Assembly: GCF_030013205.1 (NCBI RefSeq)
Contig: NZ_CP122648.1
From: Escherichia coli
Lineage (GTDB): Bacteria; Pseudomonadota; Gammaproteobacteria; Enterobacterales; Enterobacteriaceae
Reading direction: 5' to 3' (one strand)
Length of the DNA stretch: 64,000 nucleotides
Shown: positions 1-58,140 of the stretch, in pieces
Layout of the letters: the number at the start of each line of letters is the position of its first letter
Numbering within the stretch: the stretch's first letter is position 1
The notes under the pieces: generated by a model
Database searches by the model: none
Told to the model about the DNA's origin: nothing
The model's input: only the letters and a program-made list of their open reading frames with translations
Translations under genes and position numbers: made by a program

Positions 1-38
1 GTTCAACACTTCAGCTATTTGTAAGGTTGTAATAGCAG

Positions 39-70
39 GTAGATGCCTGAATCTCTATTCAGGCATCTAC
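39..70. repeat. perfect 14-bp inverted repeat (stem-loop) upstream of the transporter gene
   Basis: gtagatgcctgaat-ctct-attcaggcatctac read directly; U-rich stretch follows on + strand. Confidence 0.5.
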
Positions 71-115
71 TTCTCCTGATTCTGATTTATCGCCGTGCAC
101 CTGATGGAGGAAAAA

Positions 116-1396
116 ATGAAGAAAATAAGTTTAACCACGATGATTCTTTTGGCGCTGGTACTTGGAATGATTATCGGCGTAGTGCTCAATAACACTGCTT
201 CACCGGAAACCGCAAAACTCTATGCGCAAGAAATATCGATATTCACGACGATTTTCTTACGACTGATAAAAATGATTATCGCTCCGTTAGTGGTCTCTAC
301 CCTGGTGGTAGGTATAGCTAAAATGGGCGATGCCAAAGCCCTTGGTCGTATTTTTTCTAAAACACTCTTTTTATTTATTTGCGCCTCATTGCTGTCAATT
401 GCCTTAGGCTTGATAACAGTAAATTTCTTCATGCCAGGCACAGGAATTAATTTTGTTGCACACGGAGCCGAAACCACCGGAGTGGTCGCGTCAGAACCCT
501 TTACGCTAAAAGTATTTATTTCGCATGCTTTCCCCACCAGCATTGTCGATGCCATGGCGCACAATGAAATTTTGCAAATCGTGGTGTTCTCAATTTTCCT
601 CGGCTGTAGCCTGACGGCGATTGGCGAGAAAGGCAGCGCCATCGTTCACGCCTTAGATTCACTGGCACATGCCATGTTAAAGCTCACTGGCTACGTCATG
701 CTCTTCGCTCCCCTGACCGTATTCGCTGCTATTTCAGCATTGATTGCTGAACGAGGACTGGCAGTTATGGTGAGCGCCGGGATCTTTATGGGTGAATTTT
801 ATTTCACCATGTTATTACTTTGGGTGCTGCTTATCGGTCTGGCCATCGTTTATGTTGGCCCCTGCATCAGACGCCTGACCCGCGCCCTTTCGGAACCCGC
901 CCTGCTGGCATTTACCACATCCAGTTCTGAAGCGGCTTTTCCGGGAACGCTTGAAAAACTGGAGCAATTTGGCGTTTCCCCAAAAATTGCCAGTTTTGTC
1001 TTACCCATTGGCTACTCATTTAATCTCGTTGGATCAATGGCCTACTGCTCCTTCGCCACAGTTTTCATCGCCCAGGCCTGCAATATCCATTTATCCATCG
1101 GTGAGCAAATCACCATGCTGTTGATCCTGATGTTGACCTCGAAAGGAATGGCTGGCGTACCACGCGCCTCAATGGTGGTTATCGCCGCCACGCTCAACCA
1201 GTTCAATATTCCGGAAGCGGGGCTGATCTTGCTGATGGGCGTTGATCCGTTCCTTGATATGGGGCGTTCAGCGACAAACGTCATGAGCAACGCAATGGGC
1301 GCTGCGATGGTGAGTCGGTGGGAAGGCGAACATTTCGGCGAGGGCTGTCGGGGTAAAGCATTAAAACCCAATGAATCGAACGTTGCTCTGCCCTGA
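116..1396 (+). CDS. dicarboxylate/amino acid:cation symporter (DAACS, DctA/GltP-like)
   Basis: ORF track 95..1396; GGAGG 5 nt upstream of ATG at 116; polytopic hydrophobic protein with serine-rich SSSEAAFPG motif typical of DctA/GltP family. Confidence 0.85.
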   Translation: MKKISLTTMILLALVLGMIIGVVLNNTASPETAKLYAQEISIFTTIFLRLIKMIIAPLVVSTLVVGIAKMGDAKALGRIFSKTLFLFICASLLSIALGLITVNFFMPGTGINFVAHGAETTGVVASEPFTLKVFISHAFPTSIVDAMAHNEILQIVVFSIFLGCSLTAIGEKGSAIVHALDSLAHAMLKLTGYVMLFAPLTVFAAISALIAERGLAVMVSAGIFMGEFYFTMLLLWVLLIGLAIVYVGPCIRRLTRALSEPALLAFTTSSSEAAFPGTLEKLEQFGVSPKIASFVLPIGYSFNLVGSMAYCSFATVFIAQACNIHLSIGEQITMLLILMLTSKGMAGVPRASMVVIAATLNQFNIPEAGLILLMGVDPFLDMGRSATNVMSNAMGAAMVSRWEGEHFGEGCRGKALKPNESNVALP

Positions 1397-3768: not shown

Positions 3769-3801
3769 TAACTGCGCCTGGCATCCCGCCAGGCGCAGGT
3801 T

Positions 3802-4707
3802 TTACATCTCCTGCGGTACGACCGATTTCGCCAGCAACCATTCACGAAATTGCTGCAAGTGCGGCGAGTCAGACTTCTCTTCCTGCCACGTCATAATAAA
3901 ACGATTACCGGTACGAATAGGCACATCACAGGGAATCACCATATCGCCACTATCCAAATCATGTTGAATAGCGAACCGTGGTAACAGCGCCACGCCGAGA
4001 TTAGAGCGCACGGCGGCAATCAGCATTGAAAGCAAATCGAAACGTGGTCCGTTATTGACCAGCGGACTGCTAACGCCAGATAAAGCAAACCACTCTTCCC
4101 AGCCAGTAATACGGGTGCTTTGATGCAGAAGTGGTAACTCAGTAAGCAGTTCTGCCACTGACAGTTTTTGATCGGACATTGCAAGCAAACTGCCGCTGCA
4201 TACCGGCAAAATCTCCTCATCAAAGAGATATTCTACTTCCGCCCAGGGCGCGCAAAAATTTTCGCGCATAATGACAGCATCGTACTCCCGATTAAGAAAA
4301 TCGCCGTTATTAGCTAAAGAATGAATATTAACAATAATATCGGGATGTAACTTTGTGAATTCATGTAAATTTGGGATTAACCAGTGGGTACTAAAAGTAG
4401 GATTAACGGCAAGTTCAATAACCTGAACCGTAGGCTGCCAGGTCATAATGGTATTGGTATCGCGTTCCAGCTTATTTAATGTTTCTTTTACTATCCCCAG
4501 GTAATACTTCCCTGCATCATTAAGAAAAATACGTTTTTTAGAGTGTGAAAATAACGGAGTATGTAAAAATTCCTCCAGCGCACTCACTTGTCTGAATACA
4601 GCACTTTGGGTTAACGCTAACTCCTCTGCCGCTCTGGTATAACTTTCATGACGTGCGACGACCTCAAAAGTCACCAGCAGCTCCGTTTTAGGTATTTTTC
4701 CTCGCAT
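3802..4707 (-). CDS. LysR-type transcriptional regulator
   Basis: 301 aa; N-terminal HTH ...YTRAAEELALTQSAVFRQV...; convergent with the upstream 3-gene cluster. Confidence 0.85.
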   Translation of the reverse strand: MRGKIPKTELLVTFEVVARHESYTRAAEELALTQSAVFRQVSALEEFLHTPLFSHSKKRIFLNDAGKYYLGIVKETLNKLERDTNTIMTWQPTVQVIELAVNPTFSTHWLIPNLHEFTKLHPDIIVNIHSLANNGDFLNREYDAVIMRENFCAPWAEVEYLFDEEILPVCSGSLLAMSDQKLSVAELLTELPLLHQSTRITGWEEWFALSGVSSPLVNNGPRFDLLSMLIAAVRSNLGVALLPRFAIQHDLDSGDMVIPCDVPIRTGNRFIMTWQEEKSDSPHLQQFREWLLAKSVVPQEM

Positions 4708-5371: not shown

Positions 5372-6241
5372 TTATTTCAGAACAGTTTTCAGTGCTTCAC
5401 CGATATCCGCCAGGCTGCGAACGGTTTTCACGCCTGCGGCTTCCAGAGCAGCGAATTTCTCATCCGCAGTCCCTTTCCCACCGGCAATGATGGCACCCGC
5501 GTGGCCCATACGTTTGCCTTTCGGCGCAGTTACACCAGCGATGTAACCTACAACTGGCTTGGTAACGTGCTCTTTGATGTACGCAGCCGCTTCTTCTTCA
5601 GCACTACCGCCGATCTCACCGATCATCACGATCGCTTCGGTCTGCGGATCTTTTTCGAACATTTCGAGGATGTCGATAAAGTTAGAGCCAGGGATCGGGT
5701 CGCCGCCGATACCAACACAGGTCGACTGACCGAAACCGTAATCCGTGGTCTGTTTAACCGCTTCATAGGTCAGTGTACCGGAACGGGAAACGATACCCAC
5801 TTTACCCGGTTTGTGAATGTGACCAGGCTGGATACCGATTTTGCATTCACCCGGAGTGATAACGCCTGGGCAGTTCGGGCCGATCATGCGAACGCCCGCT
5901 TCATCCAGTTTCACCTTCACGGTCAGCATATCCAGCGTCGGGATGCCTTCAGTGATGGTGATAATCAGTTTGATGCCTGCATCGATAGCTTCCAGAATGG
6001 AGTCTTTGCAGAACGGTGCTGGTACGTAGATAACAGAAGCGGTAGCGCCAGTAGCAGCAACAGCTTCACGCACGGTGTTGAACACCGGCAGGCCGAGGTG
6101 GGTGGTGCCGCCTTTACCTGGGGTTACACCGCCAACCATTTTAGTGCCGTATGCAATGGCTTGTTCAGAGTGGAAAGTCCCCTGGCTACCGGTAAAGCCC
6201 TGGCAGATAACCTTGGTGTTTTTATCAATTAAAATGGACAT
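5372..6241 (-). CDS. sucD: succinyl-CoA synthetase alpha subunit
   Basis: 289 aa, recognisable SucD sequence; stop/start overlap with sucC. Confidence 0.97.
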
Positions 6242-27406: not shown

Positions 27407-29071
<1,665 letters not shown>

Positions 29072-29087
29072 CAGGCCAGCACCGATG

Positions 29088-29118
29088 CCTGATAAAACGC
29101 TCGCTGCGTTTTATCAGG
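29088..29118. terminator. bidirectional hairpin between convergent dtpD and phr
   Basis: cctgataaaacgc-tcgct-gcgttttatcagg inverted repeat; overlaps phr stop. Confidence 0.5.
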
Positions 29119-30532
29119 CTCCTTTCCTCGCTTCTTCGTACGCTGCCAGCGTTCGCAGCCTTGCCTCTTTGTGATCAACTATCGGTTGCGGATAATCCAG
29201 CGTCACACCTGCTTTCTGCGCCCACTTCCACGGCTCATGCACCACTTTCCCTGGCACATCGCGCAGTTCCGGTAGCCACTGGCGGATAAACTCGCCTTCG
29301 CGGTCAAATTTCTCGCCCTGGGTTGTCGGGTTAAAAATACGAAAATACGGCGCTGCATCGGTTCCGGTTGAAGCGGCCCACTGCCAGCCACCGTTATTAG
29401 CTGCCAAATCACCATCAATCAGCTGCGACATGAAATATCGCTCGCCTTCGCGCCAGTCGATCAATAAATCTTTCACCAGAAAACTGGCTGTAATCATCCG
29501 TAGCCTGTTATGCATCCAGCCAGTGCTGTTAAGCTGACGCATGGCAGCATCGACAATCGGGTATCCCGTTTTGCCTTCCTGCCAGGCCTGTAAATGTGCG
29601 GGATTGCTCTGCCACTGCACACGATCCGTCCAGGCAATAAACGGACAATGTTTACACAACGAGGGGTAATACGTCATCAGATGACGGTAGAACTCGCGCC
29701 AGATCAGCTCACTAAGCCAGACACTACCGGCCCCACCGTCCAGCGCCTGCGGCTGTTCCGCCAACAAGCGATGCAAACACTGGCGAGGCGATAACCCGCC
29801 CGTTGCCAGGCTGGCGGACAAACGACTGGTGCCTTCCACTGCCGGAAAATCTCGTTGTTGCTCATATTCTCCGGCACCGTTCTGGCAAAACTGGCGTAAT
29901 TGCGCAATCGCCGCTTTCTCTTCCACCGGGAAATGCGCAGTATCGAAAGGCTGACGAGGATAATTCAGCGTAATGGATGGCGCGGGCTTTATCGATCCGC
30001 TACTACGAACTTTTGGCGCAGCGACGCACTCCGGCATCCCTTCCCGCAGCCGTTTCAGCCAGGCGTTTTTAAACGGCGTAAAGACTTTGTACATCTCATG
30101 ATTGCCAGTCATCACCGCCCCCGGCGGCAGGATCACGCTGTCGTCAAATCCTTCACACACCACGTTACGCAGCGTTCTCTCAACCTGCGCATCCCGCGCC
30201 CGCTCATTCACCTCATACTGATAGTTATAAAACAGATGGGTAACACGATTTTCCGCGCACACCTGTTTAACTATTTCGACGCTGGCGACAAAGTCATCCA
30301 CTTCATGAAACAGCAAAGGAATGCCTTTTTCCGCCAGCGCGATTTGTAGCCCATTCAGTTGAGCATTGATAAGTTCAGCCTGACGCGGCGACACATTATG
30401 CGCCGCCCACTGGCGTGGGGTAGCGATATACAACGCCAGCACGCGCACAGACGAATTGCGGCAGGCGGCAGCCAGCGCGAGATTATCGTGCTGACGTAAA
30501 TCCTGGCGAAACCAGACCAGATGGGTAGTCAT
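29114..30532 (-). CDS. phr: deoxyribodipyrimidine photolyase
   Basis: 472 aa MTTHLVWFRQDLRQHDNLALAAA... Confidence 0.96.
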   Translation of the reverse strand: MTTHLVWFRQDLRQHDNLALAAACRNSSVRVLALYIATPRQWAAHNVSPRQAELINAQLNGLQIALAEKGIPLLFHEVDDFVASVEIVKQVCAENRVTHLFYNYQYEVNERARDAQVERTLRNVVCEGFDDSVILPPGAVMTGNHEMYKVFTPFKNAWLKRLREGMPECVAAPKVRSSGSIKPAPSITLNYPRQPFDTAHFPVEEKAAIAQLRQFCQNGAGEYEQQRDFPAVEGTSRLSASLATGGLSPRQCLHRLLAEQPQALDGGAGSVWLSELIWREFYRHLMTYYPSLCKHCPFIAWTDRVQWQSNPAHLQAWQEGKTGYPIVDAAMRQLNSTGWMHNRLRMITASFLVKDLLIDWREGERYFMSQLIDGDLAANNGGWQWAASTGTDAAPYFRIFNPTTQGEKFDREGEFIRQWLPELRDVPGKVVHEPWKWAQKAGVTLDYPQPIVDHKEARLRTLAAYEEARKGA

Positions 30533-49975: not shown

Positions 49976-50073
49976 GCTGGATCCGGCATGAACGCCTTAT
50001 CCGGCCTACAAAATCTTGTAAATTCAATATATTGCACCATCCTCGCAGGCCTGATAAGCGTAGCGCATCAGGC
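49976..50073. repeat. REP pair (BIME-like) between kdpE and pgm
   Basis: tgctggatccggcatgaacgccttatccggcctaca and inverted gcaggcctgataagcgtagcgcatcaggc match remembered REP consensus. Confidence 0.75.
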
Positions 50074-50085
50074 AGTCATAAGTAA

Positions 50086-50116
50086 AAAAGGGCGATCTTC
50101 CGACCGCCCTTTTTCT
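50086..50116. terminator. intrinsic terminator shared by convergent kdpE and pgm
   Basis: aaaaaagggcg-atcttccgac-cgccctttttc. Confidence 0.7.
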
Positions 50117-50128
50117 TATTTAATGTGT

Positions 50129-57359: not shown

Positions 57360-58060
57360 CCGGCATAGCCGGAGGTTTTTCAAATGCGCCTATAAGGCTC
57401 TCTTACCAGCCGCGCCCTAACAGGCGCACACGATCTGACATTTGCATCCAACTTCGTTACTTACGGCCCGTAAACGGGCTGCCCGGATAGGGAATCGATA
57501 ACTGCTCTCCCATTTTATCCTCTTCAAGCTGGTGCTTTATGTAATCCTGTATCTTCGCCGTGTTCTTACCCACCGTATCGACGTAGTACCCTCTGCACCA
57601 GAACTCTCTGTTCCTGTATTTGAATTTCAAATCACCAAACTGCTCGTAAAGCATCAGACTGCTTTTCCCTTTCAGATATCCCATAAAGCCGGATACGCTC
57701 ATTTTGGGCGGGATCTCCACAAGCATATGGATATGATCTGCACAGCATTCAGCTTCAAGAATCCGTACGCTTTTCCACTCACACAGCTTTCTCAAAATAC
57801 TGCCTATTGCTCTACGCTTCTCTCTGTAGAACACTTGTCTTCGGTATTTTGGCGCAAAAACTATGTGATATTTACAGTTCCATCGGGTGTGCGCTAAGCT
57901 CTTTTCGTTCCCCATTGGGACCCCCTTTTGATTTCTTGTTTGACACTTGCAGTTGCCAGACCGCAAGGTGTTTTAACAAATCAAAAGGGGTTTTAATAAC
58001 TGGCTCAAAGCTGAAAGCTTTCCGGAACCCCCAGCCTAGCTGGGGGTTTTCTGTGCACAA
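57360..58060 (-). mobile_element. IS200 (IS200/IS605 family)
   Basis: Y1 transposase ORF; perfect hairpin cccccagc-cta-gctggggg at 58028-58046 near the tnpA-proximal end; span estimated from canonical about 0.7-kb length. Confidence 0.8.
57457..57915 (-). CDS. tnpA: IS200 transposase TnpA (HUH/Y1)
   Basis: ORF track 57457..57966; start MGNEKSLAHTRWNCKYHIVFAPKYRR (152 aa); HIHMLVEIPP HuH motif. Confidence 0.93.
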   Translation of the reverse strand: MGNEKSLAHTRWNCKYHIVFAPKYRRQVFYREKRRAIGSILRKLCEWKSVRILEAECCADHIHMLVEIPPKMSVSGFMGYLKGKSSLMLYEQFGDLKFKYRNREFWCRGYYVDTVGKNTAKIQDYIKHQLEEDKMGEQLSIPYPGSPFTGRK

Positions 58061-58086: not shown

Positions 58087-58106
58087 GGATTGTTTGCATG
58101 TTTCAT

Positions 58107-58140
58107 GCCGGATGCGGCGTAAAAGCCTCACCCGGCCTGG
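58107..58140. repeat. REP element
   Basis: tgccggatgcggcgtaaaagcctcacccggcctgg matches remembered REP consensus. Confidence 0.7.

What the first reader, a model, noticed from the sequence alone, without database searches (positions are those of the whole stretch)
39..70. Perfect 14-bp inverted repeat just upstream of the transporter gene
gtagatgcctgaat/ctct/attcaggcatctac is a perfect 14-bp stem with a 4-nt loop, followed by a U-rich stretch, about 45 bp before the transporter start. It could be a terminator for the gene running off the window start, or an operator for a dimeric regulator such as the nearby LysR protein.
Basis: seen in the sequence. Interest (0 to 1): 0.25.

Follow-up and report, generated by a model that had tools for sequence, protein, structure and literature searches.

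The report
Conserved RNA hairpin inside glutamate-fermentation operon
The perfect 14-bp inverted repeat is real and is a sense-strand RNA hairpin that evolution keeps paired between two genes of the E. coli glutamate-fermentation (methylaspartate) gene cluster; it most likely trims or stabilises the operon's messenger RNA, is not a binding site for the LysR regulator, and is an ordinary kind of element.

Summary
In detail: window 39-52 and 57-70 form a perfect 14-bp inverted repeat with a 4-nt loop. About 0.002 such repeats are expected by chance in 64 kb.

The window starts inside a 160-bp spacer of an E. coli accessory island. The island is in 1124 of 5426 complete genomes, including O157:H7, and encodes the methylaspartate pathway: glmS-glmL-glmE-mal-atuA-DUF4387 | hairpin | gltP-like transporter-fumD-cobA, then LysR.

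A hairpin sits at the same place in Citrobacter, Enterobacter, Lelliottia, Buttiauxella, Trabulsiella and S. arizonae, but with different sequences:
- 14 of 16 pairs show compensatory double changes, and 91% of cells are paired.
- G·U pairs are five times commoner on the sense strand than on the antisense strand.
- Loop length varies from 4 to 11 nt.

These features fit a selected RNA structure and do not fit a protein operator. The LysR DNA-reading head is identical in E. coli and C. amalonaticus, although the arms differ at 7 of 14 positions.

The tail lacks a true U-run, and the orthologues have ACCCUAC instead, so this is not a canonical terminator. The best reading is an operon-internal attenuator or a 3'-end mRNA stabiliser. 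It is a new member of a known kind, and interest is low.

The parts
39..52 (+). 5' arm of the hairpin (GTAGATGCCTGAAT)
53..56 (+). Tetraloop CUCU. It is UUUU in strain VTB96933v, and the loop is 4-11 nt in orthologues.
57..70 (+). 3' arm (ATTCAGGCATCTAC). Its last bases, CTAC, correspond to the CCCTAC box that follows the hairpin in other genera. A61G, which gives a U.G wobble, is a common E. coli allele.
37..72 (+). Extended RNA stem of 16 pairs (adds G38.U71 and A37-U72), dG about -23 kcal/mol
71..90 (+). Pyrimidine-rich tail UUCUCCUGAUUCUGAUUUAU. It is a weak, interrupted U-tract and a possible site of partial termination or RNase E cleavage (inferred).
1..36 (+). Distal part of the 160-bp DUF4387-transporter spacer. 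It is the degenerate E. coli counterpart of the block ATTCATGCGGTTGGTCACAACAGG conserved in the Citrobacter clade.
106..110 (+). Shine-Dalgarno GGAGG of the transporter gene
   Evidence: ATGGAG invariant in 29 orthologues
116..1396 (+). GltP/DctA-like dicarboxylate/amino-acid:cation symporter (Z0888 in EDL933), the first gene downstream of the hairpin

Best explanation
The inverted repeat is a cis-acting RNA stem-loop on the sense (+) transcript. It lies in the 160-nt untranslated spacer between the DUF4387 gene and the gltP-like transporter gene of the E. coli methylaspartate (glutamate fermentation) cluster. Selection maintains the pairing, not the sequence.

Most likely mechanism (inferred): transcription from the glmS end reads into the hairpin. 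There, a fraction of polymerases terminate on the weak UUCUCCUGAUU tail, and/or 3'-to-5' exonucleases trimming the polycistronic mRNA stall at the 14-16-bp stem. The upstream enzyme segment (glmS-glmL-glmE-mal-atuA-DUF4387) would then accumulate above the distal segment (transporter-fumD-cobA). This is an operon-internal attenuator or 3'-end stabiliser, of the type described for REP and other intercistronic hairpins.

Shown here: the hairpin, its conservation through compensatory changes, its strand, and its position.

Inferred: co-transcription, partial termination, and the stabilising effect.
For: The structure is real and stable.

It sits between co-oriented genes of one pathway (PMC4682846 for the pathway and FumD).

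An orthologous hairpin lies 45-53 nt before the transporter ATG in 29 aligned loci from at least 8 genera, with different sequences. In a 16-pair helix, 90.9% of cells are paired and 14 of 16 pairs have changes on both sides. None of 500 shuffles reaches the observed value, and slid controls give 19-47% paired.

G.U cells on the + strand number 62, against 13 A.C cells, which would be G.U on the - strand. The common E. coli polymorphism A61G turns U-A into U.G.

Other spacer types at the same junction also carry a strong hairpin:
- P. vulneris type: GGGGTACGC/GCGTACCCC.
- Yokenella and Enterobacter ENT03: the spacer is only 58-61 nt, leaving little room for a promoter within it, so read-through is the likely route.
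- Yersinia: a canonical terminator.

No sigma-70-like promoter is found on the + strand in the spacer of E. coli, C. braakii or Y. alsatica.

There is weak expression support. In EDL933 RNA-seq over 11 conditions the cluster is nearly silent. Z0890, which by gene order is the DUF4387 gene just 5' of the hairpin, reaches RPKM 18 and 12. Z0888, just 3' of the hairpin, stays at 0-1, and Z0891 stays at 1 or below (PMC4048457 Table S4).
Against: There is no transcript-end or half-life data for this locus. The Term-seq supplement is not held, and the TSS tables are truncated.

The U-tract is poor, and in most orthologues it is absent. Termination therefore cannot be the conserved function, and only the stabiliser or processing part generalises.

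The RNA-seq support rests on very few reads.

A block upstream of the hairpin is well conserved in the Citrobacter clade. It could be an unrecognised activator-dependent promoter, which would place the hairpin in a 5' UTR instead.

The excess of G.U over A.C could be inflated somewhat by strand-biased C-to-T mutation.
Confidence: 0.5

Rival explanations
1. 5'-UTR element of a separate transporter-fumD-cobA transcript. A promoter, perhaps dependent on the LysR activator, lies in the spacer upstream of position 37. The hairpin sits at or near the 5' end of that mRNA. There it protects against 5'-end-dependent RNase E decay, as the ompA 5' stem-loop does, or it modulates translation or sRNA access.
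For: The block immediately 5' of the hairpin (ATTCATGCGGTTGGTCACAACAGG) is more conserved than the hairpin itself in the Citrobacter clade. Yersinia has a canonical terminator after DUF4387, so the transporter there probably needs its own promoter. The hairpin-to-ATG distance is constant at 45-53 nt.
Against: No sigma-70-like + strand promoter is found in any of three spacers scanned. The conserved block is degenerate in E. coli. Spacers of 58-61 nt in Yokenella and ENT03 leave little room for a promoter upstream of their hairpin. No transcription start in this spacer appears in the held part of the EDL933 Cappable-seq tables, though these are truncated.
Confidence: 0.2
2. Efficient canonical Rho-independent terminator that ends the glmS-DUF4387 operon.
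For: It is a strong GC-containing stem-loop downstream of a co-oriented gene. The E. coli tail begins UU and has 6 T in the first 12 nt, more than nearly all of the 28 orthologues (Trabulsiella has 7). The same junction carries a true terminator in Yersinia. RNA-seq signal is seen 5' of the hairpin but not 3' of it.
Against: The hairpin is not called by the terminator scan, with only 4 T in the first 8 nt. The d'Aubenton-Carafa-type score is -10.2, against +14.8 to +22.3 for three clear terminators and +2.9 for the cobA/lysR terminator in the same window. Orthologous hairpins have an ACCCUAC tail. fumD and cobA, which are needed for the same pathway, lie downstream with no recognisable promoter.
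Confidence: 0.15
3. DNA operator for a dimeric regulator such as the LysR-type protein encoded at 3802-4707.
For: It is a perfect dyad close to a gene start. A LysR-family (GcvA-like) regulator is encoded in the cluster. The core CCTGA...TCAGG is fairly conserved.
Against: The arms differ at 7 of 14 positions between E. coli and C. amalonaticus, while LysR residues 1-41 (the HTH) are identical and the whole proteins are 87% identical. The distance between the arms varies from 4 to 11 nt, which rotates the half-sites. There are 62 G.T mismatches at the DNA level on one strand's reading against 13 on the other. An even-length dyad cannot give a symmetric T-N11-A box. The lysR gene is 3.7 kb away and convergent with cobA, not divergent from this site.
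Confidence: 0.03
4. Diverged REP-like or other selfish or neutral palindrome with no role of its own.
For: The location is extragenic. GTAG...CTAC ends and a GCCTGA...TCAGGC core recall REP (GCCTGATG...ATCAGGCCTAC). The GCCTGA-N-TCAGGC motif occurs 4 times in the window against 0.13 expected. Canonical REPs occupy the next spacer in Citrobacter.
Against: There is a single copy per E. coli genome. REP Y, Z1 and Z2 consensus sequences hit true REPs at 49979-50074 and 58106-58138 but not 39-70. No second copy of the Citrobacter version is found in the loci held. The site is orthologous and stable across genera, with RNA-type (G.U) compensation, which argues for selection rather than spread.
Confidence: 0.07

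Closest known systems
Intercistronic stabiliser hairpins, e.g. the REP elements between malE and malF in E. coli and the puf operon hairpins of Rhodobacter (textbook knowledge, cited from memory)
   Same: A stable stem-loop in an untranslated spacer between co-oriented genes of one operon. No good U-tract is present. The expected effect is more upstream than downstream mRNA.
   Different: It is single-copy and locus-specific, not a member of the REP repeat family. It is a perfect stem without the REP bulge. Its function has not been measured.
Rho-independent (intrinsic) terminators and attenuators
   Same: A GC-containing hairpin on the sense strand downstream of a gene. The E. coli version has a UU start and a pyrimidine-rich tail. 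Yersinia has a true terminator at the same junction.
   Different: The U-tract criterion is not met. The tail is C/A-rich in most orthologues.
LysR-type regulator binding sites (T-N11-A interrupted dyads)
   Same: Dyad symmetry near a regulated gene in a cluster that encodes a LysR protein.
   Different: There is no symmetric T-N11-A box. The arms are not conserved although the HTH is identical, and the spacing is variable.
5' stem-loop mRNA stabilisers (ompA type)
   Same: A strong hairpin at a constant distance upstream of a start codon.
   Different: No transcription start is known or predicted just upstream.

Membership tests
Intrinsic (Rho-independent) terminator | Stable GC-containing stem-loop on the transcribed strand downstream of a gene | tested here: met
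   A 14-16-bp stem with dG -21 to -23 kcal/mol, 83 nt after the DUF4387 stop
Intrinsic (Rho-independent) terminator | U-tract directly after the stem (at least 5 U in 8) | tested here: not met
   TTCTCCTG has 4 T in 8, and the scan does not call it. The d score is -10.2, against +15 to +22 for clear terminators in the window.
Intrinsic (Rho-independent) terminator | U-tract conserved in orthologues | tested here: not met
   Most of the 28 orthologues have an ACCCTACAC-type tail with 1-3 T in 12 nt
Intrinsic (Rho-independent) terminator | RNA 3' ends at the site in vivo or in vitro | not testable with these tools
   The Term-seq supplement is not held
LysR-type operator | Symmetric T-N11-A dyad | tested here: not met
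   The dyad centre lies between 54 and 55, so symmetric positions are an even number of bases apart and T-N11-A is impossible (direct reading)
LysR-type operator | Half-site sequence and spacing conserved where the DNA-reading head is conserved | tested here: not met
   LysR residues 1-41 are identical, the arms differ at 7 of 14 positions, and the spacer is 4 nt against 8-10 nt
LysR-type operator | Binding by the protein | not testable with these tools
   A gel shift is needed
REP / BIME repeats | Many copies per genome | tested here: not met
   One place per genome in 1123 E. coli genomes
REP / BIME repeats | Match to the REP Y/Z consensus | tested here: not met
   A blastn-short search with the Y, Z1 and Z2 consensus hits 49979-50074 and 58106-58138, not 39-70
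REP / BIME repeats | Extragenic palindrome with a GTAG/CTAC end | tested here: inconclusive
   GTAG and CTAC are present but form the base of the stem. The CCCTAC box follows the hairpin in other genera.
Known RNA families (Rfam 15, incl. cobalamin riboswitches) | Covariance-model match | tested here: not met
   No relevant hit at E up to 10 in E. coli 1-2000 or in C. braakii L032 2780-3060 (spacer and flanks), and none at gathering score
Conserved intercistronic RNA hairpin (functional class) | Pairing kept by compensatory changes on the sense strand | tested here: met
   14 of 16 pairs have double changes, 90.9% of cells are paired, 0 of 500 shuffles reach this, and G.U outnumbers A.C 62 to 13
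Conserved intercistronic RNA hairpin (functional class) | Co-transcription of the flanking genes and an effect on mRNA level or half-life | not testable with these tools
   Only weak RNA-seq hints are available

The most novel reading that the evidence does not exclude
The hairpin may be the core of an undescribed structured leader. This leader would comprise the hairpin, the conserved CACAACA-containing block 5' of it, and the CCCUAC box 3' of it. It would sense a signal, through a protein, an sRNA such as GcvB, or a metabolite linked to glutamate or B12. It would thereby gate expression of the transporter, mesaconase and cobalamin adenosyltransferase genes in Enterobacterales that ferment glutamate.
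Probability: 0.08. Interest if true: 0.55.

Novelty: new member of a known kind. Interest (0 to 1): 0.25.

Why it matters
The island gives enterohaemorrhagic and other E. coli the B12-dependent methylaspartate route for glutamate breakdown, and nothing is known about how it is regulated. The conserved hairpin splits the cluster into an enzyme part and a transporter/mesaconase/CobA part. It is a defined, mutable handle for testing how the two halves are balanced. Beyond that, it is a textbook-type element and a clean example of RNA-level compensation. It also shows how G.U strand asymmetry and variable arm spacing can separate an RNA hairpin from a protein operator using sequence alone.

Tried and rejected
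- **Rfam.** Searches of E. coli 1-2000, C. braakii L032 2780-3060 (spacer and flanks) and the whole window found nothing at the site.
- **Dispersed-repeat or REP origin.** There is a single copy per genome and no match to the REP Y/Z consensus. The shared GCCTGA...TCAGGC core was judged too short to establish kinship.
- **LysR operator.** Rejected because the HTH is identical while the arms and spacing have diverged.
- **Promoter in the spacer.** No sigma-70-like + strand hit in E. coli, C. braakii or Y. alsatica. The scan is consensus-only, so activator-dependent promoters are not excluded.
- **Outer helix.** RNAalifold predicted GGUUGG/CCARCC around the hairpin. It is almost invariant in the Citrobacter clade and broken in E. 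coli, so it was not adopted.
- **Anti-Shine-Dalgarno pairing.** Pairing of UUCUCC (71-76) with GGAGGA (106-111) gives 6 pairs by eye, is not in the minimum-free-energy fold and is not conserved. It was dropped.
- **Experimental data.** The EHEC Term-seq paper has no held supplements. The EDL933 TSS tables are truncated, and no coordinate in 8465xx-8467xx was found. Locus tags ECs0757-0761 and Z0887-0892 are not discussed in any searchable paper other than the FumD study. The bovine-gut transcriptome supplements do not list the genes.
- **Transporter-fumD spacer (1397-1503).** It is not structured (z = +1.25), so hairpins are not a general feature of this cluster's spacers.

Full report
**Observation**

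Window 39-52 (GTAGATGCCTGAAT) and 57-70 (ATTCAGGCATCTAC) form a perfect 14-bp inverted repeat around a 4-nt loop.
- As RNA on the + strand the helix gains G38.U71 and A37-U72. The 14-bp stem has dG -20.9 kcal/mol and the extended stem -23.2.
- The 116-nt context folds better than all 200 shuffles on both strands, with z about -3.5.
- From the window's composition, about 0.002 perfect stems of at least 14 bp with 3-10-nt loops are expected. Two are present, this one and 29087-29119.
- It is the longest perfect short-loop inverted repeat in the list for the window.
- The stem ends 45 nt before the transporter ATG at 116, which is preceded by GGAGG at 106-110.
- The tail TTCTCCTGATTCTGATTTAT is pyrimidine-rich but has only 4 T in its first 8 bases, and the terminator scan does not call the hairpin.

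**Context**

The exact transporter protein is encoded in tens of thousands of assemblies. The DNA is an E. coli accessory island present in 1124 of 5426 complete genomes, including O157:H7, O55:H7 and O145. In EDL933 it lies between sucD and cydA.

The gene order is glmS (B12-binding), glmL/mutL, glmE, methylaspartate ammonia-lyase, AtuA-family, DUF4387, a 160-bp spacer, a GltP/DctA-like symporter, the class I fumarase FumD, CobA/CobO, and then a convergent GcvA-like LysR gene. This is the methylaspartate pathway cluster described by Kronen and Berg, who showed that FumD (ECs0757) is a mesaconase (PMC4682846).

Window position 1 is L001 position 5886. The DUF4387 stop codon ends at 5840. So the window begins inside the spacer, no gene runs off its start, and the hairpin lies 83 nt after that stop.

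**Comparative evidence**

A scan of one genome per species returned the orthologous junction in about 50 Enterobacterales loci.

A hairpin sits 45-53 nt before the transporter ATG in Escherichia, Citrobacter, Enterobacter, Lelliottia, Pluralibacter, Buttiauxella, Trabulsiella and S. enterica arizonae, but its sequence differs. An example is C. amalonaticus AGCGTGCGCCTGAGC-N10-GCTCAGGCGCACGCT.

On a 29-sequence alignment (A1) a 16-pair helix gives these results:
- 90.9% of cells are paired.
- 14 of 16 pairs have changes on both sides.
- None of 500 shuffles reaches any of the five observed measures.
- Slid controls pair only 19-47% of cells.

RNAalifold recovers the same helix.

The non-Watson-Crick cells are strongly one-sided. 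There are 62 G.U cells on the + strand, against 13 A.C cells, which would be G.U on the - strand. Within E. coli, the common variant A61G converts U48-A61 into U.G. A rare C64G breaks one pair, one strain has a UUUU loop, and one has IS1 inserted in the left arm. Loop length ranges from 4 to 11 nt.

Together these results indicate selection on an RNA helix in the sense transcript, not on a DNA sequence read by a protein.

**Operator hypothesis**

The LysR proteins of E. coli and C. amalonaticus are 87% identical, and residues 1-41, which cover the helix-turn-helix, are identical. Yet the arms differ at 7 of 14 positions and the arm spacing differs by 4-6 bp. The dyad has an even length, so a symmetric T-N11-A box cannot exist. 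The lysR gene is 3.7 kb away and convergent with cobA. I reject the operator reading (probability about 0.03).

**Terminator hypothesis**

A d'Aubenton-Carafa-type score, computed with modern energies and therefore only comparative, gave these values:

| Element | Score |
|---|---|
| This hairpin | -10.2 |
| Three clear terminators in the same window | +14.8 to +22.3 |
| cobA/lysR convergent terminator | +2.9 |
| C. braakii and C. amalonaticus orthologous hairpins | -33 to -35 |

The Citrobacter tails are ACCCTACAC. The conserved role therefore cannot be canonical termination.

E. coli has gained about 10 nt (TTCTCCTGAT) after the stem relative to Escherichia sp. MOD1. This gives it one of the most U-rich tails in its clade (only Trabulsiella has more T), so some termination in E. 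coli is plausible.

**The gene junction in other lineages**

The junction itself is a recurrent site for hairpins:
- The P. vulneris type has GGGGTACGC/GCGTACCCC followed by UGUUCU.
- Yokenella and Enterobacter ENT03 have a hairpin in a spacer of only 58-61 nt, which leaves little room for a promoter within the spacer.
- Yersinia has a hairpin with UUUUUU that the scan calls as a terminator.

No sigma-70-like + strand promoter is seen in the spacer of E. coli, C. braakii or Y. alsatica.

**Mechanism**

I therefore favour an operon-internal RNA hairpin that lowers or decouples expression of the distal genes (transporter, fumD, cobA) relative to the upstream enzyme genes. It would act by partial termination and/or by blocking 3' exonucleases, so that the upstream mRNA segment is stabilised. 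This is what is known for REP and other intercistronic hairpins (textbook knowledge, not tested here).

The only expression data I could reach give weak support. In EDL933 RNA-seq under 11 conditions the cluster is almost silent. Z0890, the DUF4387 gene by gene order, reaches RPKM 18 (15 °C) and 12 (solid LB). Z0888 (the symporter) is 0-1, and Z0891 is 1 or below (PMC4048457). These numbers rest on few reads.

I put about 0.9 on 'selected sense-strand RNA hairpin' and about 0.5 on the attenuator/stabiliser mechanism.

The main rival (0.2) is a 5'-UTR hairpin of a separately promoted transporter mRNA. The well-conserved block 5' of the hairpin in the Citrobacter clade and the Yersinia terminator suggest it.

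**Relation to known families**
- There is no Rfam match, cobalamin riboswitches included.
- It is not a REP. There is one copy per genome and no match to the REP Y/Z1/Z2 consensus, which does find true REPs at 49979-50074 and 58106-58138. The GTAG...CTAC ends and the GCCTGA...TCAGGC core are reminiscent of REP.
- It functionally resembles intercistronic stabiliser or attenuator hairpins. I file it as a new member of that known kind.

**Verdict**

The feature is real, non-random and evolutionarily maintained. It is an RNA hairpin rather than an operator, and it is ordinary in kind. Interest is 0.25.

Noticed in passing
L032 2890-2915 and the aligned orthologues (A1 columns 24-49); the E. coli counterpart is window 12-38: The block ATTCATGCGGTTGGTCACAACAGG just 5' of the hairpin is nearly invariant in Citrobacter, Enterobacter, Buttiauxella and S. 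arizonae, and Yersinia and Hafnia keep (C)ACAACATC. The CACAACA core resembles the GcvB sRNA target consensus (from memory), and the gene downstream is an amino-acid carrier. The block is degenerate in E. coli.
   Followed up: partly
window 64-70; L032 about 2952-2960; Yersinia L056 about 2975-2985: A CCCTAC box follows the hairpin in nearly all lineages, including Yersinia, which lacks this hairpin. In E. coli it has been absorbed into the base of the stem (CATCTAC). Its function is unknown.
   Followed up: partly
window 29087-29119: A second perfect 14-bp hairpin, GCCTGATAAAACGC / GCGTTTTATCAGGC (5-nt loop), lies between convergent ORFs 27590-29071 (+) and 29114-30532 (-). Its arms resemble REP Z1, and it shares GATGCCTGA with the hairpin under study.
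   Followed up: partly
window 3771-3797: The hairpin CTGCGCCTGGC / GCCAGGCGCAG followed by GTTTTAC lies between the convergent cobA and lysR stop codons. It is probably a bidirectional terminator (score +2.9).
   Followed up: partly
window 49979-50074 and 58106-58138: Canonical REP/BIME elements (Y-type and Z2-type) are present. A clear terminator lies at 50085-50120.
   Followed up: partly
window 57925-58048 (-): This is the only Rfam hit at gathering score in the window: the STnc490 Hfq-binding sRNA (146 bits).
   Followed up: no
L089 (E. coli strain 100416), locus 1-400: An IS1 element is inserted inside the left arm of the hairpin (at about window position 45), separating the transporter gene from the upstream genes.
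   Followed up: partly
L001 5793-5812 (inside the DUF4387 gene 3' end): The coding sequence for YGAQQHAPLL forms a terminator-like hairpin, GGTGCA...TGCACC + TTTATT, conserved in several genera. The Yersinia post-gene terminator (GGTGCAT...ATGCACC) looks similar.
   Followed up: no
L032 4431-5432; Citrobacter loci about 4329-4417 and 5400-5470: C. braakii and related Citrobacter species carry an extra gene of about 333 aa (probably the glutaminase noted in PMC4682846) between the transporter gene and fumD. Canonical REPs flank it.
   Followed up: no
L009 (contig JAIJJM010000101.1): A metagenome bin labelled Collinsella sp. carries this E. coli island at 100% identity. This is probably a binning contaminant.
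   Followed up: no
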